A program made the position numbers and the translations under genes. A stretch of DNA of 64,000 bases from Eledone cirrhosa (Eukaryota), in contig OZ024743.1 of assembly GCA_964016885.1 (NCBI GenBank), forward strand, positions 188,418,001-188,482,000, given 5' to 3'. Positions 321 to 54,971 of the stretch are shown one piece after another. The notes beneath the pieces are model-generated. The model saw only the letters and a list, made by a program, of their open reading frames with translations. It was not told the DNA's origin and did no database searches. Position 1 is the stretch's first letter, and each line of letters begins with the position of its first letter.

Positions 321-541
321 GAGGCTACCACTGTCAAAAAAGTATTCAATTCGTTAGTAGAATATAGGTGTATTCATTTTATTATAGAAATGACTTCTAT
401 GGGACAAAACCTGTTTCATTCATAAGAAATCATCAGTAGTGAAGTCAGATAATTTTTGTCAGCTTCAGTATTTATACTACCCTAAGTATTGAGTACTCTG
501 GTGTGTTGTGGTCCACCTGGTATCTTATCACACCCTCTTTG

Positions 542-543
<2 letters not shown>
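318..543. mobile_element. Short PLE-like element between (TA)n tracts, with a degenerate hammerhead on minus and the shared terminal motif at both ends in inverted orientation
   Basis: Minus strand reads CTGATGA-tttc-ttat-gaat-GAAAC-agg...ATA-gaagt, then AATAAAA. ACCAC-N10-GTATTCAAT on plus at 327-350 and GTATTGAGTAC-N11-GTGGT at 486-512. Left part is homologous to 10340-10445; right part to 50885-50962 and 54894-54970. Confidence 0.65.
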
Positions 544-575
<32 letters not shown>

Positions 576-1407
576 GTATGTATAGTATATTTGGCAATAT
601 ACTGTATGTTTAATTAAAACCTAATATATATATATATAAGATATACCAGTGTGTGTGTGAAAGAAAGAGAGAGAAAGAGAAAAGATAATGGAAACATGTA
701 AACACATATGTATATATACATGTGGATATTTCTGGAGCAAAAATTTCCTTTTTGATTCTGACTTATTTTCTTATTAAAAATACGAATAAATATTTTATCT
801 CTTTTTCCAAGAAATTAATAACTCTATTTCAATTCTGCTTTTGTAAAAGACATATGTACACATCAGTGTAGTATCTTTAAGACAAATTTCTATTTTAGCA
901 GGAAGATTAAAAAAAAAAAAACTATGTTGAATATTGCTACAGGATATATATTCTATTTTTATGCAGATAACCTGTTGTTCATGTCATTGTTATTAAATTG
1001 TAGTCCTTGTTGATGTTGTTTATGTATATGACAAACTTGGTTGAGTATACTTAAGATTAAAAACACTCCAGGTTTAACAACCTGGTCTAATTTTAGGCAT
1101 AATATTTCTATGACTGCATAACACCATGTGTCCTTCTTTTATGATGGTAAGCTATTTAGTTGTTATTTCTAGTGACTGCGTAGAGTCTCTATTGTTCTTT
1201 ATGTTGCTGGTATCAATATTGTTGTTGTTTATCTGTTTAAACTTGATCATGAAAAGCAGTCCAAGCAGGATCATTCTTATATGTTTTCTTCATACAATGG
1301 ATTATATTATCCAATGTGCTGTTTCATTTATATATTGGTAGAGTATGATATTAAAGAGATTTACCTGTGAGTTTGTCTGGTCATATCATATTTCTCCTGG
1401 TTATTGC

Positions 1408-1580
1408 AGTTGTTGTTTGGCTCTAAGTCATCTCTGATTGAACAAACCTATTATAAAAGGCATTCCAGCCATGTTTTGTGTATCTATGCCCAATGACCTT
1501 TCTTATCAAAGATGGTAGGGGGAGATTTGGGAGCTCTTATAGGAGATTAAATGACTTCATAAAGGCTTTCCCACTTTTTT
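1408..1580 (-). mobile_element. Degenerate dispersed repeat with an (AAC)n-type tail, probably a SINE/LINE 3' end; other copies near 6830-7010 and 60700-60880 (opposite strand), 9210-9360, 9400-9600, 43760-43930, 49150-49330, 56665-56760, 57320-57400
   Basis: Recurring degenerate motif gttgttgtttag...ctgat(t/c)(g/a)a.ca.accta...aaag.cattc...ccatgac...gatttg.ctgctat. Confidence 0.55.
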
Positions 1581-1609
1581 CTTGATGTTAGTATTTGGTT
1601 TGAACAAGG

Positions 1610-1790
1610 AAATTAAAGGAGTGCCAGGAGAATTAGCAGGCCAAAATAATTTGTGGCATTATTTTAGCACTTTACAATTTGAGTCCAAATCCTGCCAATG
1701 TCAACAATGCATTTCATTCTTCAAAGTTTGATAAAATAAAATACCCACACTCTGCCCAAATTTCTCACTATATGATTATATAAGAAATTA
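1610..1790 (+). mobile_element. Old degenerate tRNA-derived SINE of the 48813 family; similar relics at about 2600-2720(-), 3080-3200(+), 9810-9965(+), 60200-60380(+), 60540-60660(-), 61185-61300(-), 63510-63630(-)
   Basis: B-box-like gagtccaaatcc followed by gcatttcattcttc...gataaaataaaatacc, resembling 48887-48952. Confidence 0.6.
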
Positions 1791-1879
1791 TTTTATTTTA
1801 GTTAGAAAATTTTAAATATTTTTCTCTCAGTGGAAACCATTCTATATATATATATAGATAAATCTACCAAAATGTACAT

Positions 1880-2314
1880 TTTTCATACTCCTTCCATTCA
1901 AAACTGAAATCTGCCTTCTTCTACCCCTAAATTAAAGTTCCATTACTACTATTTTACCATTTAGCCAGTTATTACCTTTCTATTGGTCAATTCAAAACCT
2001 GTTCCCAAACAGACCTATTATATTAAATCTTTGTTGGTTTTATTCAATGAACAAATATAATTATTTCTGAAGACAGCATATGACCTATTTTCATCCCTAA
2101 GATAATCTTTCATTCATAATATTCTTTCCATCCAAAACTGAAATCTACCTTCCTCTACCCATAAATTAAGGTTCTTTTACTACTATTTTACCATCTTGAC
2201 CTTCACTATCTTTCTATTGGTCAATTCAAAACCTGTTCTCAAACAGACCTATTGTATTAAATCTTTGTTGGTTTTTTTCAATAAACAAATATCATTATTT
2301 CTGAAGACAGCATA
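1880..2314 (+). repeat. Local tandem duplication, two copies with a period of about 234 bp
   Basis: ccat(t/c)caaaactgaaatct.cctt...tattggtcaattcaaaacctgttc.caaacagacctatt.tattaaatctttgttggttt...ctgaagacagcatat occurs twice. Confidence 0.9.
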
Positions 2315-3379
2315 TATATGTGTAGGTATGTATATTCCTTCTGATAGTTTGTAAAAATTTTACATAGATCTATAGGATATGCATACTAACACTAACATAT
2401 ATATCCTAGAAACGATCGTAAAATGATGAATTTTTTAATATAAGGAACTGTTTCTTTGTTTATTCATTATTTTTATTAATTTATATATATATATATATAT
2501 ATATAAATATATATATATATATCAATACAAAATTGTGATTTACAAAACACCTAAATCCTATGAAGCCTTTAATAATTTGTCCAATCTACTGCTCTGAAGT
2601 AGTACTTTATTTATCGGCGCTGAAAGGATAAAATGTGAATTTACCTCAGCCTGATTTGAACTCTGTGCAGAGAGTCAGTCAATACTGCAAGACATTTAAA
2701 CTGATGACTCTGCTAGTTCACTACTAAATGTAATCTACATGGTTGCAAAGTATGCAATCTCTATGAATGACCAAGTGTTCACAACAATGTGAAAGAAACT
2801 TTAATAAAAAATAAGAGGTAAAGAGTGTCATCAATATTATGTTTACTCAGCTATTTATGTAGACCTTAGTATGAACACAATAATTTAGTGTTAAGTTTTA
2901 AAAAAGTATTTGAACATGGAGTAAGTATTTGATTATCAGGTGTGTCCTTTATTTTGCTTGCTACTTTTGCATTTGACAAACTGTCATAAGGAAAATCTCT
3001 GGAAAGTAATGATTTTATTCAAGCTTATACTACATGGGAATGAAGTCTTTTAAATTATTTTATAAGTAGTAACAAATGGTAGTTGATTGACAGGGTTAAT
3101 GAAGTCATCTTGCCCTCTGTGCTCTGAGTTCAAACCTTGTCAAAATCAACTTTGTCTTTCATTATGTTAAGTACCAGCTCAGTACTTATGCAGCCCTCAC
3201 ACCCTCAATATTCTCATTCTCCGACTTAATCGAGAATGGGATGGTCAAAAGGCTGTCTGGTATTCTCCTGACTACAGGGTCATGGGAGTGACAGCCATAA
3301 TTTGTTCTTCATATCACCTTTCTTAGAAAAGAGTAACAGTAATGAGAATATCTGTTATTGTTTTATTCCTGATTACATA

Positions 3380-5310
3380 CATCATCATCATCATGGTTTA
3401 ATGTCTATCTTCCACGCTAGCATGGGTTTAGATGGGAATTGTCCCACGTGAGGCAAGATTGCTTGTTTTGCTTGTATAGGACTGTCTGGCAGGTTTTCTA
3501 TGGCTGGATGCCCTTCCTATCACCAACCTGTTCAGTGTGGACTGGGAGGTTTTTACTGTGTTACCTACATGGCGTGGACTGTGTGTTTTTTTTTGTTGTG
3601 ACACCTGCACAACCTCATTTATGTAGGATGGGATGTTGTGGCACCAACATAACTTTACAGAGAAAGGGGTGGTGTAGATGGGGGTGGGGGGGTAGTGATA
3701 GTGGGATGGGGGTATATTTTTGGTTAGGAGGTGCCTACTGACTGTAGGTTTCACTTTGTACATAGGCAAAGCGGGTCTTCTGTATTACTGCGTAGCGCCA
3801 AAGATCTCGGTCCAGTGACATTGTCTTGGAGAGGTGTAAGTGTATAAGGTCGGAATTTATCAAATCGTCCCAGGTTTTTCTGGGTCTGCCTACTCCGTGG
3901 CTACCGTCTCTTTTGATCGCCCTGCACTGTTTTTATACAGCTGTCGTCTTTCATACACATCATGTGACCATACCAACATAGTCTTCTCTCGAGTAAACAG
4001 CATCTGATCCCTCTTATTCCTAATTTCTCACTTAGTTCATTTATGCTTTGCCGTTCACGTATATTACTATTACACATCCAACGGATCCTCTGCACACAAT
4101 GCCCATGTCTCACTGCCATGTAACATTGCTGTTCGTATGCAGGCATCATACAGTCTGCCTTTCAGTTTTAGGGAGAAACCTTTAGCAGCCAATAGTGGTA
4201 CAAGCTCTCTGAACTTTTTCCATCCCGTTCTGACTCTAGCTACTGTACTTTCAGAGTACGCTCAACCACTGCTGATTTTGTCACCCAGGTAACGGAAGGT
4301 TTCTATAGAACCATCTGGGCAATGGAAGGAGCTAGTATCCTGTGGGCACTTGCTACTACTTATTGCACCTGAGCACCGGTCACATATAAAATCTGTTCTT
4401 AGTTTGTTTAGCTGTGATCCCACTACATATTTTATGTACCCATACTTTGCATTTGGGACATAAAATGGAGTTTCTGCCTACTCCTTTCCTACACACTGAG
4501 CATGGCCATTTCCCAGAGGGGACCAGTGCCCTATTTTCCTTCCTACATACTAGAACTTTAGACATAGACAAGTTAATTTTAAGGCCTTGTGATTCTAGGC
4601 CATGCTTCCATGTTTGGAATTTCTTCTCTAGTTCAGCCATTGATTCAGCTATGAGTGTTAGATCATCTGCGTATAGAAGTTCCCATGGGCAGCCGGTCTT
4701 GAACTCCTCTGTTATAGCCTGAAGGGCAATAATAAATAGGAGGGGGCTAAGGACAGAGCCCTGATGAACACCAACTTTTACGCTAAATTCTTCACTATAT
4801 TCATTGTTAATTCTAACCTTGCTGACTGTTTCTTTATACATGGCTTGTATAGCTCTCATGAGCCATTCATCAGCACCTAGTTTTCTAAGAGCCTACCAGA
4901 TAATGGAGTGGGAACCCTGTCAAAGGCTTTCTCCAAGTCAACAAAAGCTAAGTATAGGGGTTTACTTTTAGCTAGGTACTTCTCCTGTAGTTGTCATTCA
5001 AGGAAAAGAGCGTCTGTGGTACTTTTACCTGACACAAACCCAAACTGCATTTCCTCTAGATCAATTCGCTCTCTGATTAGTTGTGCTATAGCTTTTTCTG
5101 TGACCTTCATGATCTGGTCAATTAATTTAAGGCCTCTAGAGTTTCCCCTATCTAGGGCATCTCCTTTACTCTTGTAGCAGTTAATGATGATGCTGCTATG
5201 CCAGTCATTTGGTATGACCCCATTCTGTATGACTTGGTTTACTATCCAGATGCTTTCAGCATTTCAGCAACTATCTACAAAGTCCCAGCTGCTTTGCCTG
5301 TCTTCATATT
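3380..5310 (-). mobile_element. 5'-truncated, decayed RTE LINE (subfamily A), RT to 3' UTR with (GAT)n tail
   Basis: ORF 4380..4859 has QGSVLSPLLF and LYADD and is nearly identical to the matching part of 15030..18146. Contains small internal deletions and frameshifts; 3' end is cccatgctagcgtggaagatagacattaaacc-atgatg. Confidence 0.93.
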
Positions 5311-6998
5311 TACTATTGGAAAACTTGAATTCATTACTCATATATTATCAGTTACACAGTGTTATTTCTATCAGATTTATTTGCACAAACTAATAGAAAC
5401 TCAAATATTTCAAAGCTTTGATCTTCTATTTATGTTTTCCTTTATGTATTCAGCACCACAAAACTGCAGCAGCAAATACTCAGAACACAATGTTGGCCAC
5501 CATCATTGTAGAAATATTTTACATATTATCTAATATCAATTTTCTTTCTTGACATTAAATCTCATTTCATCACAGCAGTAAACTACAATTGTTCAGGGTA
5601 GCCCATTTGCCCCTAAACGATGGTGGGAAGGATTGGATCATAAAATATTTAGATTACTTTCAAACTATTAAAAGCAGCACTGAGGTCCTTTAGATAATAG
5701 GATTAATTTGAAAAGCTTTTTCTATAAATGATATTTTCCTACTGACTGAGTAAATCAAGCTTCTTAAAATAATTCTTATCTCACTTGTTCCAGCTATGCA
5801 GTCATGCAATAGTTTTCATTTCATTGCTCTAATACCACAAAAAAAAAAGAAAGAAAAACATTGCATTGCATTACTCAAGTGTAAATAACATCTTAAATCT
5901 GAGCTTTACTTTGTCATGTTTCCATTTTTTGAAAAGATAAAGTGAACCCTCTTACATCCATAAGCTGTTTGTCAGTAGTTGTATCAGAGTTGATCTTAGA
6001 TCAACATAATGATTTTCAATGTTTAGAGGGTTTCATCGTTTTGGGGGTGGTGATGGTGATGGGGTAGTGATCATGATCCAGCCAAAAGATTAATTGGATT
6101 GGGTTTGCTCTCTAGCTAGTGAGACAGTTCATTGGAGCATGGGTTCATAATTTGAATCCTTTCCCAGTATTCTTGATTATCTAATTTCCAATGGAACTCT
6201 GAAACATATAGTACATGTTGCTGCTGGACACAACATGTAAGGTTTCAACTAGTAAGGTTTCAATGTATGAGCTGTGCACCAACAGCCCATGCATCCTAAC
6301 CCATCAGGCATAACAGAAAGTCTTCATCAATTTAATGCAGCTCAGATTGAAAGAAAATTTTGAATTATGAATCAAACTTTCTATAGTCTCATTTATGCAG
6401 AATTGTAATTTCTTCTGAAGCCTTTGACGCTGGTTAGATGACAGTTAATAAATCAATTTACTTGCCTTAATACACATATAACCACACAGGTGCATTCACA
6501 CACACGCATCTACACACATATATAAACACTCATGAATATACTACCATATATATCTTATGTATTATATTTATGCTTATAAAATATTTCAAGCTCGTAACAC
6601 ATCAATTCAGATATTCATAGTGGATGTAATATTTATGATCATACAATATTCATTTCCGATATATGAAATAATTCTTATGAACATTCTCATATTAGTCAGT
6701 ATCCATAAGCTTTACAAATGTATATATTTCTTTCAAGTATTCTCACAGTTCTGAGAATAAAATTTTCATACCAATTCTCTTTTCCTTCATTAAATGATGC
6801 TGCATATCAAAGCAATGTGTTCCTTCTCTGGTGACTGTGTGAGCAAGACTCTACAAAATTGTTCATCCACTAAAAATAACAGCCAAATAAGTCGCAAATC
6901 ACATTATATCCTCTTTAAAAAGAAAGCATATATGATATTGCTCTCAGAAATAAGCCAGTAAGCTTTTCATCATAAATCCCCTTGATCAGACCTAACAT

Positions 6999-7097
6999 TA
7001 ACAACATAACCTACAAGAGTTAAGATGGTAACTTTTGCTAGAATTAACAGTAACAACATAACCTACAAGCATTAAGATGGTAACTTTTCCTAGAATT
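6999..7097 (+). repeat. Two-copy tandem repeat, unit about 53 bp
   Basis: taacaacataacctacaag..ttaagatggtaactttt.ctagaatt occurs twice. Confidence 0.85.
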
Positions 7098-7569
7098 GGT
7101 GAATGGAAGAGATGAATGGATATTCAGAATAGAGATTTGTCTTGAATGGTTGCAACAAGGAGTACTCCGCTAAAGGCACCCTAGGGTTAGATACAGGTTT
7201 TAAATCAGTTGATGGATTAAGTCTACAGAAATTAAGTCTATAAGACATGGTATGGGACATACTAATAGGTGTGATGTTAATGTTGAATAAATGGAATGTT
7301 TGACTTACAATTTCAGGTTATTCTTAGCAGATCTGTTCTGCTAGAGAACAGGTCACAGGTAGTGGATAGTATTATAGTCACTAGATATAATTGTTTCTAC
7401 TTTTGGCACAAGGCCAGCAATTACCCAGTGCATTACTGCTAGATATAATGGTTAATTGCAATACAAGTAGCCTCTTGACAGATGAATCAGCAACCCTGAA
7501 CATACAACAGTAGACTACTAGGGGGGAGATGTAACAATGGGTAACATTGTTATCACCTAATAAATTTCT

Positions 7570-8415
7570 CACAACCCAGTGATGTAGCTATGATAAGGTG
7601 AGTAAAGGCTGCCTCTAAAATGGCCTAGTCTTCACAGGACTGAGACAAGTACCAGATTGGTAACTGGCATGAATGAGACAACAAAAACACTGCAATATGG
7701 CTGGAAACAGTAAAGATGTCCATACTACATCCTCCTTCATGAAGGAAAACAAGGGACACATTCAGAACCTAGGAAAAAAGGCCTGTTCAAAGAATTTATT
7801 GCAGTCTCCATTCAACGCTCCAAGAAGTGGCAATAGGCCAGCAACCTGTCCAAGGAGGCATGGGATGGAAGCACAAATGTTATGTATCCTGAGACCCCAG
7901 TAAAGATCTAGAAAGGAGTAAAGCCTAACAATTGGAAACTGGAATGTTACAATACTTACCAGCAAGGAGCATGAACCAGTGGAGGAGGCTCAATGCAACT
8001 GGCTAGTCAGAGTTTCCTCAACAAAGATCCATGACATTTGTATTGTAGGAAACTCTCATATTTAGGTGTGGTACCAGAAGAAAAAGAACAAGAGGGAGAG
8101 GGAATACTCACATGCCCTTGGCTGTCAGAATGTGGGATAGACTGGATTCCAAAGGGAGGGGGAATTTGCCTCTTTAAGCTTTGGCTGAAAAAATGGTCTC
8201 TGTGTGTGGTGCAAATTTATGTGCCAAACAGAGAGTCCAAATACAAATTCTTCTTTGATGTAGTCACTGCATCATTAGATTTAGTTAAGACTGTGTCATA
8301 TATCCTGATGGGAGACATCAATGTACATTCAATGTGGGTGTCAGTCTCCATGAAGGGTGTGTAATGTCACCTCTCCTGTTCATAATCTTCTAGGACAGAA
8401 TCGACATGTGCAGAT
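7570..8415 (+). pseudogene. Decayed older RTE (Expander/Rex3-like): 5' UTR and APE start fused by internal deletion to an RT fragment
   Basis: Encodes LTIGNWNVTILTSKEHEPVEEA, VVQIYVPN and ILMGDINVH, then LHEGCVMSPLLFIIF*DRIDMC. 5' UTR is the reverse complement of about 25340-25530. Confidence 0.75.
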
Positions 8416-10273: not shown

Positions 10274-10310
<37 letters not shown>

Positions 10311-10312
<2 letters not shown>

Positions 10313-10516
10313 CGTAGGTCCCGGGTTGAGTCGGGGATAACCACAGTAAGTAAGGTACTCAATACATGGCAGAGTAAAATTTTTTAATTTTATAGAAGGA
10401 GCTTCTACAGGACTAGTACTGTTTCATTCAGATGAAATCTTCAGGAAGCTTCCTGAAGATTTCATCTGAATGAAACAGTACTAGTCCTGTAGAAGCTCCT
10501 TCTATAAAATAAAATA

Positions 10517-10520: not shown

Positions 10521-10572
<52 letters not shown>

Positions 10573-10581
10573 CATGTATGT

Positions 10582-11587: not shown

Positions 11588-11588
<1 letters not shown>

Positions 11589-11623
<35 letters not shown>

Positions 11624-14278: not shown

Positions 14279-14322
<44 letters not shown>

Positions 14323-14324
14323 TA

Positions 14325-14632
14325 TTAATTCAAAATATTAACAAAAATAGACATTCGTGTGATCAAGTATATTTTATTATACATATTTCAGAGGTACTGA
14401 GCTATCTTCAACAGTACGTCCTCATCAGATAAAATAAGATGATGCATGACATACCCTGACTTAGTAGATGGTTAAGATTCAGTCATGGTGAACTTTAGTG
14501 AATTTAGTGAATTTTAGTTCATTCTACCATGACTGAATCTTAACCATCTACTAAGTCAGGGTATGTCATGCATCATCTTATTTTATCAGATGAGAACGTA
14601 CTGTTGAAGATAGCTCAGTACCTCTGAAATAT
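14325..14632. mobile_element. Fold-back PLE-like element with 107-bp inverted arms (14383-14489 and 14526-14632) carrying hammerhead motifs
   Basis: Arms differ at two positions and enclose a 36-bp spacer. (TA)n on the left; the right arm is abutted by the tail of the RTE at 14633. Confidence 0.8.
14371..14435 (-). ncRNA. Type I hammerhead ribozyme candidate with a canonical core
   Basis: Stem I ATTTTAT/ATAAAAT; core CTGATGA; stem II GGA(C)GTACTG...CAGTAC(C)TCT; GAAA-T-atgt-A-TA, giving an AUA cleavage triplet overlapping AATAAA. Confidence 0.75.
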
Positions 14633-17600
14633 CATCATCATCATCATCATCATTGTTTAACGTCCGTGTTCCACGCTTGCATGGGTTTGGACGGGGGTTT
14701 TCCCACTTGAGGCAAGAGTGATTGTCTTGCTCGCATAGGACTGTCTGGCAGGTTTTCTACAGTTGGATGCCCTTCCTAACACCAACCACATTTACAGTGT
14801 GGGTCTGGGAGGTTTTTACCGTGTTGCTTACACGGCCAAATTACAGCGTGGACTGTGTGTTTTTTTGTCGTGACACCTACACGATCTCATTTGTTTCGGC
14901 CTGGATGGTGTGGCACCAACATAACTTTACATAGAACGGGGTGGTGTGGATCGGGTGGGGGTGGTGGTGGTGGGACGGGGTGTATTTTGTTAGAGATGCC
15001 TACTGGCTGGAGTAGGTTTTACTATATATTTAGGTAAGGCGGGTCTTCTCTGTTACTGAGTACCGCCAAAGGTCTCGGTCCAGTGACATTGTCTTGGAGA
15101 GGTGTAAGTGTGTGATGTCGGAGTTTATCAGCTCGTCCCAGATTTTTCTAGGTCTGCCTATTCCGTGACTACCGTCTATCTTTATTGCCCTGCACTTTGT
15201 TATACAGCTATCGACTTTCATGCGCATCACGTGTCCATACCAACGTAGCCTTCTCTCGAGTAAACAACATTTGATCCCTCTTATCTCTAATTTTTTCCTT
15301 AGTTCGTTTATGCTTTGCCGTTCACGTATATTACTGTTACACATCCAGCGGAGCATGCAAGCTTCGTTCCTCTCTAGTCTGCGTATATCCTCTGCACACA
15401 ATGCCCAGGTCTCACTGCCATGCAGCATTGCTGTTCGTATGCAGGCATCGTACAACCTGCCTTTCATTTTTAGTGAGAACCCTTTAGCAGCTAATAGTGG
15501 TATAAGCTCTCTGAACTTTTTCCAACCAGTTATGACTCTAGCTACAGTACTTTCAGAGCACCCTCCCCCACTGCTGATTTTATCGCCCAGGTAACGGAAG
15601 CTGTCCACTATTTCTATAGAACCCTCTGCGCAATTGAAAGAGCTAGTAGTTTGTGGGCACTTGCTGCTACTTATTGCACCAGAGCACCGGCCACATGTAA
15701 AATCTATGTTCTTAGTTAGCTTACCTGTGATCCCACTACATCTTTTATGCACCCATACTTTGCATTTAGGACATAAAATGGAGTTTCTACCTACGCCTTT
15801 CCTAAACACCGAGCACGACCATTTCCCAGAAGGGACCGCCGCCTTGTTTTCTTTCCTACAAACTAGTACTTTGGTCTTAGCCAGGTTAATTTTAAGTCCT
15901 TTTGACTCTAGGCCGTGCTTCCATGTTTGGAATTTCTTCTCTAGCTCGGCCATTGATTCCGCTATGAGTGTCAGGTCGTCTGCGTATAGGAGTTCCCATG
16001 GGCAGCCTGTCTTGAACTCCTCTGTTATAGCCTGAAGGGCAATAATAAATAGTAGTGGGCTGAGAACAGAGCCCTGATGGACGCCAACTTTTACGCTAAA
16101 CTCTTCACTATATTCGTTGTTAATTCTAACCTTGCTGACTGTTTCTTTATACATGGCTTGTATAGCCCTCACAAGCCATTCGTCAACGCCTAGTTTTCTA
16201 AGAGCCCACCAGATAATGGAGCGGGGGACTCTGTCGAAGGCTTTCTCCAAGTCGACAAAAGCTAAGTAGAGGGGTTTACCTTTAGCTAGGTACTTCTCCT
16301 GTAGTTGTCGTACTATGAAAAGAGCGTCTGTGGTACTTTTGCCTGACACAAACCCGAACTGCATTTCATCTAGGTCAATTCTCTCTCTGATTAGTTGCGC
16401 TATTACTTTTTCCGTGACCTTCATGACCTGGTCGATTAATTTAATGCCTCTATAGTTACTCCTATCTAGGGCGTCTCCTTTACCCTTATAACAGTTAACG
16501 ATGATGCTGCTATGCCAGTCCTTCGGAACAACCCCATTCTGTACGACTTGGTTAACTATGCGGGTGACCATGGTGTGTCCCACCGTGCCAGATGCCTTCA
16601 GCATCTCAGCAACTATTTCCGAAGGCCCAGCCGCCTTACCCGTCTTCATATCCTTGATTGCCTTACTTATTATACTCCCCTCGACTAACACTGCTGGTCC
16701 CTCTATTGGGTCGATATGGGGGAGACTGCCTTTCTCCCAATTATTCTCCTCATTTAGTAGCCTTTCATAGTGACACTTCCAAGCTACCTTCTTATCAGCG
16801 TCGGTGATGGCAAGTGTGCCATCGTCGTTTAGTACACACTTCTCCCCGACAATATCACGGTTTTCCTTGACGCATTGCCTAGCAATCCTGAACACCTCAC
16901 GTTTTTGGTCATCGCGTTGTAGAACATGCTTGAACTTTCTTTCCTCAGCTTCCCTTCTTGCTAAGTACACTTGTCTCCTAGCTTCCCTCCTGGCCACTTG
17001 ATAGTCCTCTCTACTTCCCCCATCCCGCCATACTTTCCAAGCCTGCTTTTTGGCCTTAATTGACCCCTCCACCTTACTGTTCCACCACCATGTTACTCTC
17101 CTCCTGCCTACAGGCCTGCTCCAGCCACAGACTTCGTCTGTCGCCAACAGCAGGTTTGCTTTCAGAAATTCCCACTCTCCCTCTATATTGTCCGACTCTA
17201 AATGTTCTTCCTTACTGTCGAAAGCATCAAGTAGTATGCTTTGAAATTTATTCCTGGCTGTGGGGTCCTTTAGCTTCCATATTTTCCTCCTGAGGATAGT
17301 CCTCTTCTGTTGTCGAGTACGTCTCGTCCTGACTATGAGGTCGCTAATTATCAGTCTATGTTGGGAGGTGCATTCTTCATGGGGGAGGGATTTAGTGTTT
17401 ACAACAGACACTCTGTCACGTCTTCTGGTAAGGATATAATCTACCTGGCTTGTGTTTTCCCCGGATCTATAGGTGATCAGGTGATTGTCACGTTTTTTGA
17501 AGTTAGTGTTACAGATAGTTAGGTTATTTGCATCACAGAATTCCAGGATTCTGGAGCCTTCCTCATTTCTAGTACCAAACCCATAGCCTCCATGGATTTC

Positions 17601-18166
17601 GTCGTAGCCGTCACAATGTTGTCCAACGTGACCATTTAGGTCGCCTGCGATAATTATATAGTCACTGTCGGATATTTGGGAGGTAGTTAGCATCAGTGTC
17701 TCATAGAATCTGTCTTTTATAGTGCCGGGCAGTCCGGATTGGGGTGCGTACGCAGATATTACTGTCACCGTAGTTCTATTGAGGACAAGTCGTATTTTAA
17801 TTATTCTGTCGTTCACTCTATTTACGTCTATTATCTTATCTGCCCACTTTTCTGCTACCATGATTCCTACTCCACCCAGCCCATCGTCGTTTCCCACCCA
17901 GAAAAGCTTATAACATCTTTTTTTACCCTCAATGAACCTAGCAGACCCACCCCTCCACCTGGTCTCTTGAATACAACAAACATCGACCTCCTTACGTTCA
18001 ATCATTTCTACAACCTCGTTAGCGCGACCCTTTAGGGTGCCTACATTTATGGTACCAACTCTGAAGTTTTGGATTGCGTTTGAGGGTTGGGGGCGGTGGG
18101 GGGCGGGGGGCGATGGGGTTATGTTAGCCGTCCGCGGTCGAAACAATGAGGAGTGCTCGCATTCTC
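14633..18166 (-). mobile_element. Near full-length RTE LINE (subfamily A) with an uninterrupted ORF, about 390-nt 3' UTR and (GAT)n tail
   Basis: Single ORF plus 3' UTR nearly identical to 53138-53527; 5' end abuts a (TA)n/(TG)n tract. Confidence 0.95.
15030..18146 (-). CDS. RTE-clade LINE polyprotein: APE endonuclease, reverse transcriptase, internal PHD-like C4HC3 finger
   Basis: APE motifs (TINVGTL, CIQETRW, SAYAPQ, GDLNGH, DYIL, SQHR) and RT motifs (NYRGIKL, QFGF, FVDLEKAFD, QGSVLSPLLF, LYADD, FRYLG). Ends with the RTE-type RLRWYGHV..GRPRK.W. The annotated start codon is TTG. Confidence 0.95.
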   Translation of the reverse strand: MFRPRTANITPSPPAPHRPQPSNAIQNFRVGTINVGTLKGRANEVVEMIERKEVDVCCIQETRWRGGSARFIEGKKRCYKLFWVGNDDGLGGVGIMVAEKWADKIIDVNRVNDRIIKIRLVLNRTTVTVISAYAPQSGLPGTIKDRFYETLMLTTSQISDSDYIIIAGDLNGHVGQHCDGYDEIHGGYGFGTRNEEGSRILEFCDANNLTICNTNFKKRDNHLITYRSGENTSQVDYILTRRRDRVSVVNTKSLPHEECTSQHRLIISDLIVRTRRTRQQKRTILRRKIWKLKDPTARNKFQSILLDAFDSKEEHLESDNIEGEWEFLKANLLLATDEVCGWSRPVGRRRVTWWWNSKVEGSIKAKKQAWKVWRDGGSREDYQVARREARRQVYLARREAEERKFKHVLQRDDQKREVFRIARQCVKENRDIVGEKCVLNDDGTLAITDADKKVAWKCHYERLLNEENNWEKGSLPHIDPIEGPAVLVEGSIISKAIKDMKTGKAAGPSEIVAEMLKASGTVGHTMVTRIVNQVVQNGVVPKDWHSSIIVNCYKGKGDALDRSNYRGIKLIDQVMKVTEKVIAQLIRERIDLDEMQFGFVSGKSTTDALFIVRQLQEKYLAKGKPLYLAFVDLEKAFDRVPRSIIWWALRKLGVDEWLVRAIQAMYKETVSKVRINNEYSEEFSVKVGVHQGSVLSPLLFIIALQAITEEFKTGCPWELLYADDLTLIAESMAELEKKFQTWKHGLESKGLKINLAKTKVLVCRKENKAAVPSGKWSCSVFRKGVGRNSILCPKCKVWVHKRCSGITGKLTKNIDFTCGRCSGAISSSKCPQTTSSFNCAEGSIEIVDSFRYLGDKISSGGGCSESTVARVITGWKKFRELIPLLAAKGFSLKMKGRLYDACIRTAMLHGSETWALCAEDIRRLERNEACMLRWMCNSNIRERQSINELRKKLEIRGIKCCLLERRLRWYGHVMRMKVDSCITKCRAIKIDGSHGIGRPRKIWDELINSDITHLHLSKTMSLDRDLWRYSVTEKTRLT

Positions 18167-18204
<38 letters not shown>

Positions 18205-18479
18205 AGATAGATAGATGTTCATAGAGAGAGAGAGAGAGAAATATATATATTATATATATGCACACACCCACGCACACACACACACACATATATAGTGTAG
18301 TGTAGTTTGGTAATGAATATGCAAAGTTGGGAAAGCACTCAATCTGTGGAAAGAGTTTGTGATATATAGATATTTTTACACTAAATATATTCTCATTTAG
18401 GGACAATTGTTTTACTAGGCATCTGTTTCAGGTCATTCACTGATACCAGAATCCAGTTCACCAGCCTATGTTAACTCCA

Positions 18480-44100: not shown

Positions 44101-44267
44101 TATAGTTTGCAGTACAATGCCTGGGAAGACCACAAAATAGTAGTACTCAATACATGATTTGCTGCAGAGTGGGTATATTAGTGAAGCAGAGATCAACCAC
44201 AAACTCAGGTTTTGAGCTAGAGTAACTAGCCAAAACTGCCTGAGCTTACAATAAATCCTCTACTTCA
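44101..44267. mobile_element. Short hairpin element with the shared terminal motif
   Basis: GACCAC-N9-GTACTCAATAC..AGAGTGGGTA at 44128-44175, then an imperfect hairpin tgaagcagag..ctcagg..gctag-agtaa-ctagc..cctgag..ctctacttca. Confidence 0.6.
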
Positions 44268-47631: not shown

Positions 47632-47763
47632 TTAAAGTCAATAGATCAGGTGCAACAAACATACTAATGTTGATTCAGTTATAACTTTCTGTTAAAATTG
47701 CATGAGATTGTGTCAAATTACAGAATCTTTATGAAACCAATTTTTCCTTCAACCATTACAATA

Positions 47764-49095
47764 TACTAGCAGAAAAACCACCCTTCGGGTGGTTTTCTGC
47801 TAGCATGTGTAGTGTGTATATTGATATTATACGCAGGTATATATACATGTAAATATGATACATCAAATAAAATCGTAATTGACAATATATAATACATAGA
47901 AATTGAACGAAGACTGTGTTACACTGTCTTATGTAGTCAGTAATGTAGTCCATGATACATTAAAAAAGACGATATTATAAACTGCATTGGGAGAAAATTA
48001 GTGACAGAAAATGAGTATGTTTATTTAAGCGATGGCCAACCGGAAGTGTTAACATTTCAGAAATTTTAAAGAAGTGAATCTTTAAATAAACAAAATATAT
48101 TTAATCAACAGCCACGAAATTTAGTAGATAAATTATGTAATATTCATTCATTATTTATTCAAAGTTATCCAACTTATTTTACTAATGGGATAACAAATTA
48201 TAAAACGTACGCATTCCCGCACTCCTTACTTTATTATAGTTTAGATTATATTTGTTAGTGTTTCCTTCTGTAACCATTATATTAAATGAGTTTTAATAAA
48301 AAGAGTTAATAAATAAATAAAACGCTATACTTGTTTTACCCTCCCATTTCCAATTAAACCGAACGCTATCATGACTGTATTTGTGTAAATGTATATGTGT
48401 GAATGTATGTATGTTTGTGTGAAAGTATGTATATTTGTGTGAAAGTATGTATGTTTGTGTGAATGTATGTATATTTGTGTGAAAGTATGTGTATTTGTGT
48501 GAATTATGTCCATGAGAGTGTATTTTTATAAGTTTGTGTTTGCGCGATTATAGTTATATACTCATACATATAGATGTATATGTGTGCACAATCATACGCG
48601 CCAGATGTAGAAAATCATAATCTCTCTATCCCTCTCATCACAAACACTCTCTTTCTCTATATATATATGGTAGTTGAAGTGGTGACGATATATCGGAAGT
48701 GCAACTTTGAAAAGAAGTCAATTTGAAATTATTTATTTTTACGAAATTATTTTTGTTTACGAAATTTAGTAGATAAATTATGTAATATTCATTCATTATT
48801 TATTCAAAGTAAGGGCGGTGGATTGGCAGTATCGGTAGAGGGTCGGACGCCATGCTTTCCAGCATAGTTACGTCCCTTTACGATCTGAGTTCAAATCCCG
48901 CCGAGGTTGACTTTGCCTTTCATCCTTACGGGGTCGATAAAATAAAGTACCAGTAATGCACTGGATAATTGCTGGCCTTGTGCCTAAAGTAGAAACAATT
49001 ATTTATTCAAAGTAATAGAACTTATTTTACAAACGGGATAAAAAAATAATAAACTGTACGCAATCCCGCAGACCTTCCTTTATTATAGATTAGAT
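47764..49095 (+). mobile_element. Probable non-autonomous Helitron/Helentron-like element with a duplicated 3' block and internal minisatellite
   Basis: Starts TACTAGC with a hairpin at 47766-47803. Block acgaaatttagtagataaattatg...gtacgca.tcccgca..cctt.ctttattatag.ttagatt occurs at about 48114-48248 and 48759-49097. A 20-bp gtatgtatgtttgtgtgaaa array lies at 48375-48503. Confidence 0.5.
48813..48997 (+). mobile_element. Full-length young tRNA-derived SINE with an 18-bp target-site duplication
   Basis: A box tggcagtatcgg; B box gagttcaaatcc; central gcctttcatccttacggggtcgataaaataaagtaccag resembling Meta/MESC-type domains. TSD ATTATTTATTCAAAGTAA at 48795-48812 and 48998-49015. Confidence 0.92.
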
Positions 49096-50308
49096 TTATT
49101 CAATGTTCTGTTTTATCAGTTTGACTGTGATTTGAAATTTCTTGTCATTGTTATTGTTTAGCACCAGTTCAGGTGTGATTGAGAAAATCTATGACTATCC
49201 AGTAATGACTAACTCCTATTTTTCACAGACATCTAGTCATCCTTTTTCTTTTAGATGATCAGGCATGATTTAACAGAAATTTGGCTGCTATATATAGCAT
49301 GTAAAGCAACATGATAGAGTCCCTCTCGAGTGTTGGTAGTCGTGGTAGGTTTTCAGTAGTAGTATCTAGCATCTGTCTGTAACATTAGTAAATGTAATGC
49401 TGATTAAATCATCTTTCAGTTAGGAGTTATGATTTGTAATATTTTATCGACATCAAGTTCTTTGGCTCTAGACATAGTGCAAAGATAATGATGCCATAGG
49501 AACCATTGAAATCTAGATTCAGCTGCTTCACATCCTATTAATTTGGGCAGAAGCAGTTCTCATTTCAAATTGACATCACTTCAGGAAAAAAAAGGAGGGG
49601 GGGGGGGGCGAGTATAGAAATATATTAACCCACAATAACAATCATATAATATTTTCTATGCTTGTTAAGTGTACAGTATAACTCGTTCGTTTTCACTTTT
49701 TTTTGGTGCTGACCATACACGAATTGCCAATAAGTCTAATATGTTTTTCTTCTCTGCTGGAATCAATCCAATTGTATACTTGTTGACATTATAAGTCTTT
49801 TACACACATACACACACACGAAAAGGTATATACATATATACATACAAACATACATACAAACACACATACATACACACATACACATACTTCCATCATATGA
49901 AATATGTAAGTAATTCATTCACTCAACTTACAGTGCCAGATATAATGCTTAATGAACTAGAGGCTAGAAAGAGCATAGCCCCCCCCCCCCCCAATCTCAA
50001 ACTACATATTGTACACACTACATACTCATGATTGCTGTGAAGTCAGGTGCATCCCAAATGACCTATAGAGTAAAAGATGTTATTATATTTCTTCACACAT
50101 CAACTATTTCTTCCACTGTTCTCTTTGAAATTTTGCCAAAAATCATTCCTAAAATCAAAGAAATTAGTCAGAAGAAAATAATATTTTCATAAAGTAGTTG
50201 TATTCAGTGAGAATTTCACAGAATCTTCTTAAATACATACAGATACATATCCACACGCAGAGGCATGCATAATCACATATACACACATAGACACACACAT
50301 ATATATAT

Positions 50309-50340
<32 letters not shown>

Positions 50341-50344
<4 letters not shown>

Positions 50345-50691
50345 GGACATGGCTTAGTGGTTAGAGCATTGGCCTTGCAATCGAAAGGTTGTGAGTTCAA
50401 TTCTCAGACCGAGTGATGTGTTGTTTCCTTGAGCAAGACACTTTATTTCACATTGCTCCAGTTTACTCAGCTGTAGAAATGAGATGATAGGGACTGGTGT
50501 CCATATCATTCCACTACAAAGTGGTCGTGCAGGTGCCACGGCAAAAAAGCACCCAGCACTCACTGTAAATGAGGTTAGTGTTAGGAGTTAGGAAGGGCAT
50601 CCAGCTGTAGAAATCAAGCCAGAATCAGTTCCCGTCCCACCCTTGCAAGCAGGGAAAACGCGGACGTAAAATGAAATGATGATGATGATGA
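50341..50691 (+). mobile_element. Full-length tRNA-derived SINE: tRNA head, CORE-like block, Ceph-like module, RTE-B tail
   Basis: A box tggcttagtgg; B box gagttcaattc; tccttgagcaagacactt; gttaggaagggcatccagc; tail cccgtcccacccttgcaagcagggaaaacgcggacgtaaaatga matches 26128-26169 on minus. Confidence 0.92.
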
Positions 50692-50777
50692 TATGTATAT
50701 ATATGTATGTATATATATATCTATGTATGTATATATATATATGTATGTGTGTATGCATATATATATATATATATATA

Positions 50778-50962
50778 GGAAAAAGTATGACTCCGACGGC
50801 AGAGCTCAAGCCGTTTCGACGGCTATTTCTAGTCCTGAAATAGCCGTCTTGAGCTCTGCCGTCGGGGTCATACTTTTTTCCTATTACCCACTCTACTACC
50901 TTAAGTATTGAGTACTCTGGTGCGTTATGGTCCATCTGGTTCCTTACCACAATTCCTTTGTT
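50778..50962. mobile_element. Hairpin element (about 100-nt near-perfect fold-back) with the shared terminal motif, in (TA)n
   Basis: gaaaaagtatgactccgacggcagagctcaag pairs with cttgagctctgccgtcggggtcatactttttt; inner stem gacggctatttc/gaaatagccgtc; tail TACCCACTCT..GTATTGAGTAC-N11-ATGGTC. Confidence 0.75.
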
Positions 50963-50997
50963 ATATATATATATATATATATACACATATATGTATG

Positions 50998-51205
50998 AAG
51001 TGTGTGGTGCTGAGACTGAGGAGACCACAAATCATGGTAGTACTCAATATATGGAGAGATGCAGAGTGGGTATAGAGATGAGTAAAATACTGTGACAACA
51101 AGCAGCTTCAACTTATGTGTTAAACAAGCCTTTTCAAGCCTTGAAAAGGCCTGTTGAACATACAAGTCAAAGCCACTTAGCATTGTTGTCAGGATTTTAC
51201 CTTCA
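50998..51205. mobile_element. Hairpin element with the terminal motif and back-to-back degenerate UUGAAAA hammerhead-like arms
   Basis: GACCAC-N11-GTACTCAATA..AGAGTGGGTA at 51023-51072. Imperfect palindrome 51081-51200 centred on TTTTCAA-gcc-TTGAAAA. Confidence 0.65.
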
Positions 51206-51231
51206 TATATTTATACATGCACATATATGTA

Positions 51232-51271
<40 letters not shown>

Positions 51272-51275
<4 letters not shown>

Positions 51276-52204
51276 GATAGGGGGGGAAGAAAAAATGGCT
51301 TCACTCGTGCTTTCAACAAATTTATTTTCTTCGCAAAATCCAAAAATAATTTTTTTCCCTATTAGAAAAAATTTTGTTAAAGAAATTTTTTTTTTTTTTT
51401 TTAATAAATTAAGTTGTTGGTTGTTGGTTAGGTCTTAGGAGTTCTTGGTTAACGTAGGAGGTATTGTTTCGTTTTTAGAAAGACCTTTCAGGCTGAGGTG
51501 CGCTTGTCAAACTGATGTGTATGTGGTGTGTTGTTCTATATATAGGGATTTAACATGTCTGTGGTATGGTGGGTTTTTTTTCTCCCCCTTTAATAAGTGT
51601 AGGGGTGTAGGTGTGTTGAAAAAATGTTAATAGCAGTAATGAGTTGAGACAGTGAGTAGGGTTGGGTGGGGAGAAATGTAGCAAGTGCGGCCTGCCCCGG
51701 TCATTCTCGAAAAATTCCTTTATTCAGGGGAAAAAGCTTTTAGTATTCCTTTGTGACGAGAATGGTCATAGGCAAACCGCACCTGCCAAGCTTGTAAACA
51801 ATTATTTTTTTCTGAAAAATTTTTCTACGTCCATCCCAAAATTAGTCCTTTGTTCAACACACACATATGTGCGTATATACGTACATACACACACGGGCAT
51901 ATGTAGGAATATATAGGCACACACCACCAATCACACACCCATGTACATATACATCCACATACATACATAAAAACATATAAAAACACATATACACATATGT
52001 ACACACACGAATATGTACTCATACCTCCACATGGGTATATATATATATACATACATATACATACATATACACACATAAAGATACATAACTAAATATACAT
52101 ATATACACATACACGCACACACACACATACACACACACACATATATATACATATGTCCGTATATATACATCCGTTCACACATACATGCATACACACACAC
52201 ACAT

Positions 52205-52237
<33 letters not shown>

Positions 52238-52250
52238 GAGGCATACACAT

Positions 52251-52308
<58 letters not shown>

Positions 52309-52480
52309 GTACACATAAACACATACAGACACATACACACATATACATACATATACACATATATATATATATATCTATATATATGTACACACATATATAT
52401 ATATATATATATACATACATACACATACACATACAAATACATACACACATACACATATACACCTACATATACATACATAC

Positions 52481-52541
<61 letters not shown>

Positions 52542-52683
52542 CACACACATACATACACATATACATATATATGTGTACACACAAGCACATAAAGACACAT
52601 ATATACATATATGCACATACATACACACACACACACATATATAGATACATACATATACATACACACACATATAAACATATATC

Positions 52684-52715
<32 letters not shown>

Positions 52716-53087
52716 CAAACATACACATACATACATATACATATACATATATATACACACATACACACATATATATATATATATATATTACACACACATA
52801 CAAACATACACACATCCATACATATATATACACACACATACACACACCCACATACATATATACCCCCACGTACATACATCCATACATACCTACACACATA
52901 TATGTGTGTGTCTCACCGTTCACTCCGATATTCATGTGTACACATAAGAAGAGGGGCGGGGTAGTTTAAATGGAATTTTACCTCCGAGTGTTAATTCATT
53001 TTTTCGTGTTCAGTAGTGGATTTTGTGAAGAAAATAAATTTGTTGAAAGCACAAGTGAAGCAATTTTTTTCTTCCCCCCTATCCCAA
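51272..53087. mobile_element. Element bounded by about 70-bp inverted repeats and enclosing a 1-kb compound microsatellite (TIR element or PLE with an inverted 3' end)
   Basis: ttgggataggggggga.gaaaaaatggcttcactcgtgctttcaacaaatttattttcttcgcaaaatcca (51272-51342) and its reverse complement at 53017-53087, TA-flanked. Confidence 0.75.
51857..52910. repeat. About 1-kb compound (CA)/(TA)/(CATA) microsatellite
   Basis: Directly visible; explains all Y/I/H/T/V/C/M-rich ORFs here. Confidence 0.95.
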
Positions 53088-53136
53088 TATACCTAACTGT
53101 ACCAAGGATTACACACATTTTCCAATATATATATAT

Positions 53137-54380
53137 ATCATCATCATCATCATCATCAACGTTTAACGTTCGTGTTCCACGCTTGCATGGGTTTGGACGG
53201 GGATTTTCCCACTTGAGGCAAGAGTGATTGTCTTGCTCGCATTGGACTGTCTGGCAGGTTTTCTACAGTTGGATGCCCTTCCTAACACCAACCACGTTTA
53301 CAGTGTGGGTCTGGGAGGTTTTTACCGTGTTGCCTACACGGCCACATTACAGCGTGGACTGTGTGTTTTTTTTTGTCGTGACACCTACACGATCTCATTT
53401 GTTTCGGCCTGGATGGTGTGGCAACAACATAACTTTACATAGAAGGGGGCGGTGTGGATTGGGTGGGTGGGACGGGGGTGTATTTTGTTAGAGATGCCTA
53501 CTGACTGTAGTAGGTTTTACTTTGTATTTAGGTAAGGCGGGTCTTCTCTATTACTGAGTACCGCCAAAGGTCTCGGTCCAGTGACATTGTCTTGGTGAGG
53601 TGTAAGTGTGTGAGGTCGGAGTTTATCAGCTCGTCCCAAGTTTTTCTGGGTCTGCCTATTCCGTGGCTACCGTCTATCTTTATTGCCCTGCACTTTGTTA
53701 TACAGCTATCGTCCTTCATGCGCATCACGTGACCATACCAACGTAGCCTTCTCTCGAGTAAACAACATCTGATCCCTCTTATTTCTAATTTTTTCCTTAG
53801 TTCGTTTATGCTTTGCCGCTCACGTATATTACTATTACACATCCAGCGGAGCATGCAAGCTTCGTTTCTCTCTAGTCTGCGTATATCCTCTGCACACAAT
53901 GCCCAGGTCTCACTGCCATGCAACATTGCTGTTCGTATGCAGGCATCGTACAACCTGCCTTTCATTTTTAGGGAGAACCCTTTAGCAGCTAATAGTGGTA
54001 TAAGCTCTCTGAACTTTTTCCACTCAGTTCTGACTCTAGCTACTGTACTTTCAGAGCACCCTCCCCCACTACTGATTTTGTCACCCAGGTAACGGAAGCT
54101 GTCCACTATTTCTATAGAACCCTCTGCGCAGTTGAAAGAGCTAGTATTTTGTGGGCACTTGCTGCTACTTATTGCCCCAGAACACCGGCCACATGTAAAA
54201 TCTATGTTCTTAGTTAGCTTACCTGTGATCCCACTACATCTTTTATGCACCCAAACTTTGCATTTGGGACACAAAATGGAATTTCTACCTACGCCTTTCC
54301 TACACTCCGCGCATGGCCACTTCCCGGAGGGGACCGCCGCCTTATTTTCTTTCTTACAAACTAGAACTTTAGTCTTAGCC
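53137..54380 (-). mobile_element. 5'-truncated young RTE (subfamily A, very close to the 14633 copy)
   Basis: Open frame 53528..54380 with an intact PHD-like finger (WPCAECRK), 3' UTR and (GAT)n tail. Confidence 0.94.
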
Positions 54381-54396
54381 ATATATATATATATAT

Positions 54397-54971
54397 AAAA
54401 AGCCAGGATCCCGACGGCTGAGCTCCAACCATTTCGACAGCTAGATCCGAACTAAGCCACCAGTATTAAAATGGCGGGAATCTAGCTGAACTTATCAAGG
54501 AGTACAGTCCATATATGGGCATGCAGTCAAAACAAAAAAAAGAAAAAAAATCTAGGTAAGCAAAAAATCCTAAAAGTTTGTTGTTTTCTTGTCTGTCTCA
54601 GGGAGCTGTTTTTCAGGCCTGTTTAACCCCAGCTGCTATGAAGGTATTTAACTATTTACATTACATCCCAGATCATTGACCACTCCCCGTGACATACAAG
54701 AAAAAGAACAAAATTTTTGGATTTTTTGCTTAGAATTCTTTGCTTTTTCCGTTTTGACTGCATGTCCATATATGGACTGTACCCCTTGATAAGTTCAACT
54801 AGATTCCCACCGTTCTAATACTGGTGGCTTAGTTTGGATCTAGCTGTCGAAACACTTGGAGCTCAGCTGTCGGTGTCCTGACTCTTTTCCTATTACCCAC
54901 TCTACTACCCTACGTATTGAGTACTTTGGTGTGTTATGGTCCACCTGGTATCTTACCACACCCTCTTTGTG
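54397..54971. mobile_element. Large imperfect fold-back element (arms about 54397-54605 and 54683-54889) with UUGAUAA hammerhead-like motifs and the shared terminal motif, in (TA)n
   Basis: Arms are reverse complements with scattered mismatches. Right tail 54890-54970 is homologous to 475-543 and 50881-50962. Confidence 0.78.
54423..54502 (-). ncRNA. Hammerhead ribozyme candidate with a U3-A8 core and long stem II; more degenerate mirror on plus at 54782-54861
   Basis: CTCC-TTGATAA-G-tt-CAGCTAGATTC...GGATCTAGCTG-t-C-GAAA-tgg-TT-GGAG. Stem III is vestigial. Confidence 0.5.

What the first reader, a model, noticed from the sequence alone, without database searches (positions are those of the whole stretch)
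327..54942. Conserved terminal signature ACCA(C/T)-N9-11-GTA(C/T)TCAAT(A)...AGAGT attached to unrelated hairpins
Seen seven times: 327-350(+), 486-512(-), 10340-10375(+), 44129-44175(+), 50885-50931(-), 51024-51072(+), 54895-54940(-). It always lies between a TA-rich tract and a fold-back body, with ACCAC nearest the tract and near-constant spacing, while the spacer and the attached hairpin differ. Inference: a cis-recognition signal for the mobilising RT/endonuclease, analogous to a LINE 3' tail, that has been kept across diverged families.
Basis: partly seen in the sequence, partly recalled or inferred. Interest (0 to 1): 0.72.

Follow-up and report, generated by a model that had tools for sequence, protein, structure and literature searches.

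The report
Paired hairpins mark Penelope insertion ends
The repeated motif is part of the first of two small, conserved bulged hairpins that Hydra-type Penelope jumping genes carry in front of their gene; inserted copies end a few bases before one hairpin or the other, so the hairpins likely tell the element's telomerase-related enzyme where to start copying, which would explain the one-sided 'tail' of these insertions.

Summary
All seven sites are real (0.01 expected; 77,488 genome-wide). Read on the opposite strand, the motif is the 3' side of a bulged hairpin (RCUC-stem-UH bulge-GAGY-AC) just downstream of the hammerhead ribozyme in Hydra-clade Penelope-like retroelements (PLEs). The 'unrelated hairpins' are mostly fold-back stubs of diverged PLE ends.

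The hairpin occurs twice, 55-83 nt apart, before the start codon. It is kept in 34 of 38 metagenome families (both copies in 23), with compensatory changes. Insertion ends lie -1 to +4 nt 5' of one copy or the other in 17 of 19 metagenome ends. In this genome the modal gap is 3-7 nt. The short arm ends before hairpin 1 and the tailed arm before hairpin 2.

Likely mechanism (untested): each hairpin docks the reverse transcriptase and sets an internal start site, so the tail equals the hairpin spacing.

Not found in Rfam or in eight literature searches. This scan reported the same reading earlier on other DNA of this genome.

The parts
233..317 (.). (TA)n target tract at the tail end of the site-1 element
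318..445 (-). Family F (B-like) PLE 3' stub: degenerate hammerhead (core about 413-436), hairpin 1, shortened tail; no fold-back, head to head with site 2; 5' limit approximate
339..371 (-). Hairpin 1 of site 1 (AUUC/GAAU, compensated second pair)
   Evidence: 13 bits, E 0.31
471..542 (+). Family A' tail, 5'-truncated inside hairpin 1, ending in (TA)n 543-571
   Evidence: 15 bits
10313..10520 (.). Family B2 fold-back insertion: tailed arm on - strand, short arm on + strand, TA tracts both sides; family has a full RT-endonuclease ORF elsewhere (L094-L097)
10352..10383 (-). Hairpin 1 of site 3
   Evidence: 29.1 bits
10421..10444 (-). Type I hammerhead core, tailed arm (cleavage untested)
10453..10476 (+). 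Type I hammerhead core, short arm (cleavage untested)
44105..44265 (-). Family E (A-like, old) stub with imperfect fold-back; no ORF linked; limits approximate
44140..44178 (-). Hairpin 1 of site 4
   Evidence: 24.1 bits
50778..50961 (+). Family A fold-back stub and tail; tail ends 3 nt before the place of hairpin 2 in full-length copies
50882..50918 (+). Hairpin 1 of site 5
   Evidence: 38.7 bits
50993..51204 (-). Family C (A-like, old) tail and imperfect fold-back, tail to tail with site 5 across one TA tract; limits approximate
51037..51075 (-). Hairpin 1 of site 6
   Evidence: 20.8 bits
54397..54970 (+). Family A' fold-back (arms 54397-54548 and 54736-54887), hammerhead with U3/A8-type core at 54786-54853, tail ending in (TA)n
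54891..54927 (+). Hairpin 1 of site 7
   Evidence: 36.1 bits

Best explanation
The motif is part of the first of two tandem bulged hairpins that lie between the hammerhead and the start codon of Hydra-clade Penelope-like retroelements, and each hairpin likely docks the element's reverse transcriptase so that copying starts a few bases 5' of it. SHOWN: layout hammerhead - hairpin 1 - hairpin 2 - ATG - RT/endonuclease ORF; compensatory changes in the stem; insertion ends just 5' of either hairpin; fold-backs with one short and one tailed arm. INFERRED: the structure acts in the RNA. The endonuclease nicks a (TA)n tract, the nicked end pairs with a U/A-rich patch just 5' of a bound hairpin, and reverse transcription runs towards the hammerhead and 3' UTR without copying that hairpin. 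Priming at hairpin 1 gives the short arm and priming at hairpin 2 the long arm, whose extra 'tail' (55-83 nt in these families) therefore contains hairpin 1. Two primings on the two target strands would give the inverted stub. A template must carry both hairpins 3' of the ORF, which requires a tandem or circular transcript (inferred, untested).
For: Layout: full-length B1, B2 and A copies. Conservation: at least one hairpin in 34 of 38 metagenome families with 200 nt or more upstream of the ORF, both in 23; 65 hits in 48 such regions against 6 in 130 kb of ORF. By eye, a clear or variant copy in 5 of the 6 Hydra consensi of Craig 2021 (coral, sea cucumber, 'Crog'); the sixth stops about 10 nt after its hammerhead. 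Covariation: inner pair 43 of 44 families Watson-Crick (25 U-A, 18 C-G; shuffle 22), next pairs 36 and 31 of 44. The inner pair switches at least 7 times on a protein tree and the 5'-C and 3'-G sets are identical, 18 of 18. RNAalifold finds the same fold unaided; 93% of cells paired, 75 two-sided changes against 25 shuffled. Ends: 17 of 19 independent metagenome ends (15 families; 7 at hairpin 1, 10 at hairpin 2) lie -1 to +4 nt before a hairpin. Family A: 16 of 19 short arms end 5 nt before hairpin 1, and 14 of 24 tailed arms 3 nt before hairpin 2. Family B1, first 100 listed arms, counted by eye: 36 end 5-7 nt before hairpin 1, 10 at a TATAT patch 12 nt before it, 51 run on, 3 other. Of 100 tails, 97 end before hairpin 2, 3 run into the ORF, none ends at the TATA just after hairpin 2. 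Precedent: Poseidon_Ac RT starts internally at two sites, the tail is the sequence between them, and RNA well 3' of the start is required (PMC11167929).
Against: No biochemical test; everything about binding and priming is inferred from genomic footprints. 2 of 19 metagenome ends (L147, L155), 4 of 43 family A ends and 10 of 46 B1 short ends fall off the modal site. The four base pairs of the core are nearly invariant and my search demanded them, so they show little covariation (one pair, G-C to A-U, in 7 of 44 rows). Hairpin 2 has a weak upper stem (second pair 24 of 42, fourth pair no better than shuffled), and in family B it is a divergent GCAC/GTGC form without the AC. The strand evidence is modest: 15 G-U against 6 A-C in inner pairs 1-3. 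The Poseidon_Ac template has no such hairpin in its required region (by eye), so the motif is not PLE-wide. Families C and E were not linked to an ORF.
Confidence: 0.62

Rival explanations
1. The hairpins define RNA 3' ends (cleavage or termination a few nt 5' of each), and the RT then primes at the RNA end as in ordinary target-primed reverse transcription.
For: Predicts the same genomic ends as the best explanation. Frangieh 2024 report RNA-seq read ends at the Poseidon_Ac start sites.
Against: In Poseidon_Ac the main product does not change with the RNA 3' end and RNA beyond the start is needed. No Rfam ribozyme matches the hairpin.
Confidence: 0.13
2. The hairpins serve another job (internal promoter, translation, packaging), and ends are set only by U/A-rich microhomology patches that happen to precede them.
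For: Positions -3 to -8 are strongly A/U-rich before both hairpins. 10 of 46 B1 short arms end at a TATAT patch 12 nt upstream. The pair sits in the 5' UTR, where Penelope has its promoter and intron.
Against: 36 of 46 B1 short arms use a poorer match nearer the hairpin, and 0 of 100 tails use the TATA just 3' of hairpin 2. Ends follow the hairpins although their spacing varies from 55 to 83 nt.
Confidence: 0.13
3. The element acts as DNA: a cruciform or palindromic site bound by the GIY-YIG endonuclease, which resolves the insertion intermediate next to it.
For: The D. virilis Penelope endonuclease needs the tail to recognise a plasmid (Pyatkov 2004, seen only as cited). Craig 2021 ascribe the tail to endonuclease resolution. 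The core GCTC/GAGC is an inverted repeat of nearly fixed sequence.
Against: The half-sites are 8-26 nt apart with a compensated stem and a one-sided bulge. The new junction lies in a TA tract that has no motif, and hairpin 2 is absent from the insertion whose end it marks.
Confidence: 0.1
4. The motif is the terminal inverted repeat or sub-terminal signal of MITEs or another DNA transposon.
For: Small non-coding palindromes in TA tracts look like MITEs.
Against: The motif lies on one arm only in 18 of 18 fold-backs; it follows a hammerhead and precedes an RT ORF.
Confidence: 0.02

Closest known systems
Hydra clade of C-terminal-endonuclease PLEs (Craig et al. 2021, PMC8557442; passages, section 11, supplement parts 23, 52, 53 read)
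   Same: Single ORF of about 710 aa with RW(K/R), DKT and CxCx5C motifs, hammerhead in the pLTR, insertion into (TA)n, inverted truncated copy, one-sided tail.
   Different: The passages and section read do not describe the hairpin pair or tie ends to it, although it is visible in the paper's own consensi. The tail here is 55-83 nt, not 30-40 bp.
Internal RT initiation in Poseidon_Ac (Frangieh et al. 2024, PMC11167929; parts 1-3 of 4 and supplements 1 and 3 read)
   Same: Two internal start sites, tail equal to the sequence between them, AT-rich target, requirement for RNA 3' of the start.
   Different: Other clade. Starts lie inside the ORF in an AC-rich stem-loop, the binding motif was not defined, and the GCUC/GAGC hairpin is absent from the required region (by eye).
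Minimal type I hammerheads of PLE repeats (Cervera and De la Pena 2014, PMC4209133; passages read)
   Same: The fold-back bodies hold such hammerheads; the paper proposes circular RNA templates for tandem PLEs.
   Different: The passages read do not mention a conserved element downstream of the ribozyme.
3' stem-loops recognised by 'stringent' LINE reverse transcriptases, and the telomerase template boundary element (both recalled, no call)
   Same: An RNA structure that positions a reverse transcriptase at a fixed distance from the first copied base.
   Different: The LINE signal is single, terminal and copied into each insertion. Here there are two internal copies and the one used is left uncopied. 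The telomerase element stops copying rather than starting it.

Membership tests
Hydra-clade PLE | Single ORF, RT followed by C-terminal GIY-YIG endonuclease | tested here: met
   713-aa B1 ORF with YRDD and a C-terminal YIG motif (by eye); 1,406 homologs at E<=1e-30, one listed with PF01541. Pfam itself gave no RT or GIY-YIG hit on the two ORFs.
Hydra-clade PLE | RWK motif, DKT in place of DKG, CxCx5C linker | tested here: met
   B1 and B2: RWR, DKT, CxCx5C; family A fragments: RW[KR], DKT; metagenome proteins 44, 46 and 44 of 53.
Hydra-clade PLE | Absence of the CCHH motif in the endonuclease | not tested
   No formal check made.
Hydra-clade PLE | Hammerhead in the pLTR | tested here: met
   Cores found by pattern in the window and loci. 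Rfam did not detect them. Cleavage untested.
Hydra-clade PLE | Insertion into (TA)n with inverted truncated copy and one-sided tail | tested here: met
   27 of 30 with TA tract, 18 of 30 fold-back, motif on one arm in 18 of 18.
Hydra-clade PLE | Phylogenetic placement with the named Hydra references | not testable with these tools
   The published sequences could only be read, not aligned; likeness to Hydra-1_Obim and others is by eye.
Hydra-clade PLE | ORF link for window families C, E, F and A' | tested here: inconclusive
   F: one copy runs into a B-like 5' UTR and start (L275). C: one copy runs into hairpin 2 (L245). E: none among 25 loci. A': one copy with hairpin 2 (L221)..
DNA transposon / MITE | Same terminal motif on both arms and a transposase parent | tested here: not met
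LINE-type 3' tail | Single signal at the RNA 3' terminus, copied into every insertion | tested here: not met
   Full-length copies run on through hairpin 2 into the ORF; about half of B1 arms lack the motif.
Known Rfam family | Match at gathering score | tested here: not met
   Window: only low-complexity or hairpin matches below gathering score; 18 of the 78 metagenome loci scanned, 0 matches at E<=1.

The most novel reading that the evidence does not exclude
Hydra PLEs carry a clade-wide pair of RT-docking RNA hairpins. A dimeric RT-endonuclease binds both on one tandem or circular RNA and primes the two strands of a TA target, so the PLE tail and the inverted pLTR are direct prints of hairpin spacing: a telomerase-like, structure-measured template boundary that could be moved to program where a PLE enzyme starts copying any RNA.
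Probability: 0.35. Interest if true: 0.8.

Novelty: new variant of a known kind. Interest (0 to 1): 0.62.

Why it matters
How PLE reverse transcriptases, the sister group of telomerase, pick their template and start site is open: the one in vitro study left the binding motif undefined, and the origin of the tail and of the inverted repeats has been conjecture. A 30-40-nt element conserved across many families, with fixed distances to both insertion ends, gives an exact target for mutagenesis and structure work. It also gives a marker for annotating Hydra ends and their non-coding dependants: over 90,000 exact matches to two patterns in this genome.

Tried and rejected
Rfam: nothing for the motif or the hammerheads. 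Viral contigs: no related locus. Pfam: no meaningful hit on two ORFs. No Hydra ORF in the window. Expression: no RNA holder listed; no reads laid. Homodimer prediction for the N-terminal 300 residues of a homolog: no answer, not evidence either way. My first hand-written structure was two columns out of register (model R1 not used); corrected.

A conserved third helix between the hairpins was rejected: mean z -0.19 over 29 linkers. UGGU could equally pair with a downstream ACC in A-like families; undecided. Extension to Naiads: one look-alike in Naiad_Mmer, none seen in the neighbouring consensus; treated as unresolved. Splice-site and tRNA-box readings of the motif were considered from recall and dropped because they do not account for the compensated stem. 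The antisense count is not an independent control (the core is palindromic), and its ORF control was inflated by tandem copies; replaced. The label 'octopus' is my guess; no call of mine names the host.
Full report
OBSERVATION. The pattern ACCAYN{9,11}GTAYTCAAT matches seven times at the stated places, with 0.01 expected. With a final A it matches 77,488 times in the 3.0-Gb own genome against 37 for the reversed control. Of the first 30 genome hits, 27 have a TA tract within 60 nt (background 11%) and 18 an adjacent fold-back (background 6%); in none of the 18 does the partner arm carry the motif.

WHAT THE BODIES ARE. Some copies run on into an ORF. Family B1 gives a 713-aa protein with RWR, DKT, YRDD, CxCx5C and a C-terminal YIG motif. 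B2, the family of site 10340, and family A, the family of site 50885, are likewise linked. These are the marks of the Hydra clade of PLEs given by Craig 2021, section 11. Pfam gave no useful hit. Families C, E and A' resemble A, and F resembles B, in hammerhead and flanks; ORF links for them are single copies or missing. No Hydra ORF lies in the window.

THE ELEMENT. An alignment of 40 proteins (39 homologs and B1) fetched 78 metagenome loci (the best 80 of 272 confirmed stretches), 61 families at under 80% DNA identity. Between hammerhead and start codon they carry GCUC-Y...R-UH-GAGC-ACU, usually twice. Of 38 families with at least 200 nt upstream of the ORF, 34 have one or more copies and 23 have two; most of the rest are truncated. 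There are 65 hits in 48 regions of up to 240 nt against 6 in 130 kb of ORF. Spacing is 55-83 nt in 29 loci, 78 in family A and 70-71 in B. By eye, 5 of the 6 Hydra consensi in the Craig supplement show a clear or variant copy; the sixth ends before the place. A covariance model ranks the seven sites among the top eight hits of the window; it was trained partly on their families.

STRUCTURE. In hairpin 1 the pair above the 2-nt bulge is Watson-Crick in 43 of 44 families (25 U-A, 18 C-G; shuffle 22); the next two are paired in 36 and 31 of 44 (shuffles 25 and 18); the bulge is UU in 33. On a protein tree of 41 of these families the pair switches at least 7 times, 6 forced by well-supported branches, and both sides always switch together. 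RNAalifold returns this fold on a MAFFT alignment of 44 hairpins picked from those in hand; 93% of cells pair and 75 change on both sides against 25 in shuffles. Limits: the core was required by my search and is nearly invariant; hairpin 2 has a weaker upper stem; no conserved fold was found between the hairpins.

ENDS. One search gave 39 hammerhead-bearing ends with a same-family reference. I set aside 10 cut by contig ends, 9 that run on in tandem and 1 duplicate. Of the 19 left, 17 (15 families) stop -1 to +4 nt before a hairpin, 7 at hairpin 1 and 10 at hairpin 2 (L123 re-read by eye); L147 and L155 do not. In family A, of 47 arms, 19 end before hairpin 1 (16 at exactly 5 nt), 24 before hairpin 2 (14 at exactly 3 nt, 4 at 17-20 nt) and 4 run on; most of these loci were chosen for carrying the motif. 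For B1, unselected listings counted by eye: of 100 arms 36 end 5-7 nt before hairpin 1, 10 at a TATAT patch 12 nt before it, 51 run on and 3 are other. Of 100 tails 97 end before hairpin 2, 3 enter the ORF and none ends at the TATA after it. Distances run from the last base that matches the template, so they include microhomology with the TA target.

MECHANISM. Shown: layout, covariation, end positions, one tailed arm per fold-back. Inferred: the RNA hairpin docks the RT, a nicked (TA)n end pairs with the U/A-rich patch 5' of it, and copying runs away from the hairpin. Two primings give a short and a long arm, and the tail is the hairpin spacing. This fits Frangieh 2024, where Poseidon_Ac RT starts at two internal sites that bound the tail and needs RNA 3' of them, though that template lacks this motif. 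Rivals are RNA cleavage at the same points, microhomology alone, and a DNA-level endonuclease site; none is excluded without an experiment.

WHAT IS KNOWN. PLE stubs, hammerheads, TA targeting, inverted repeats and the tail are published (Craig 2021; Cervera 2014, passages; Li 2026 preprint, parts 1-2 of 5). I found no description of the hairpin pair in what I read, in eight library searches (listings only for papers not named here) or in Rfam. Subscription journals and Repbase were not searched. Earlier agents of this scan reached the same reading on other pieces of this genome. I had the pair and its link to ends before reading those. The Hydra lead and the both-strands idea came from a note. 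Their agreement is not counted as evidence.

VERDICT. A real feature, correctly suspected to be a PLE cis-signal but misread as a terminal linear motif. It is a new, sharply testable RNA element in a known clade. Interest 0.62.

Noticed in passing
window 18332-18364 (-): Candidate eighth hairpin 1 of another family (ACUC/GAGU, UU bulge, then GC instead of AC), with a hammerhead-like remnant upstream and a TA tract about 45 nt downstream; 14.5 bits, E 0.11.
   Followed up: partly
window 55996-56574: Perfect 289-bp-arm palindrome beside a (TC)n(TA)n tract, without the motif; holds a GAAAC that may belong to a hammerhead of another PLE family.
   Followed up: no
window 14383-14632: Fold-back with 107-bp arms, 98% complementary, no motif, next to the 3' end of an RTE-like copy.
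   Followed up: no
window 54786-54853; L002, L012, L095: Family A hammerhead has U at core position 3 and A at position 8 in place of C3-G8, and a long stem II; position numbering is recalled, activity untested.
   Followed up: partly
window 15030-18164 (-): Open 1,044-codon frame of an RTE-like LINE (family name from recall), with at least five broken relatives in the window; several PLE stubs sit beside (CAT)n-ended RTE 3' ends.
   Followed up: no
PMC11167929 methods, template RNA: By eye, the Poseidon_Ac template has two similar GGC-N6/7-GCC hairpins 41 nt apart, each followed by an AC-rich run, the second holding the reported start at +111-118. The paired-unit logic may extend to another clade with another motif.
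   Followed up: no
L112 about 120-200; L157 about 2300-2335: Variant cores (GCAC or GCCC 5' strand, GCGC 3' side) in two metagenome families that the strict pattern missed.
   Followed up: no
L098, L141, L152, L159, L166 contig starts: Several metagenome contigs begin within about 10 nt of a hairpin, as expected if many copies with different flanks break the assembly there.
   Followed up: no
L321/L322; window 50961-50993: Two tailed arms facing each other across one TA tract, of the same family (L321/L322) or of different families (window sites 5 and 6).
   Followed up: no
L176, L180, L181, L182, L188, L198: Six of 30 family-B hammerhead hits share one identical downstream flank, so one short stub has itself been multiplied inside another repeat.
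   Followed up: no
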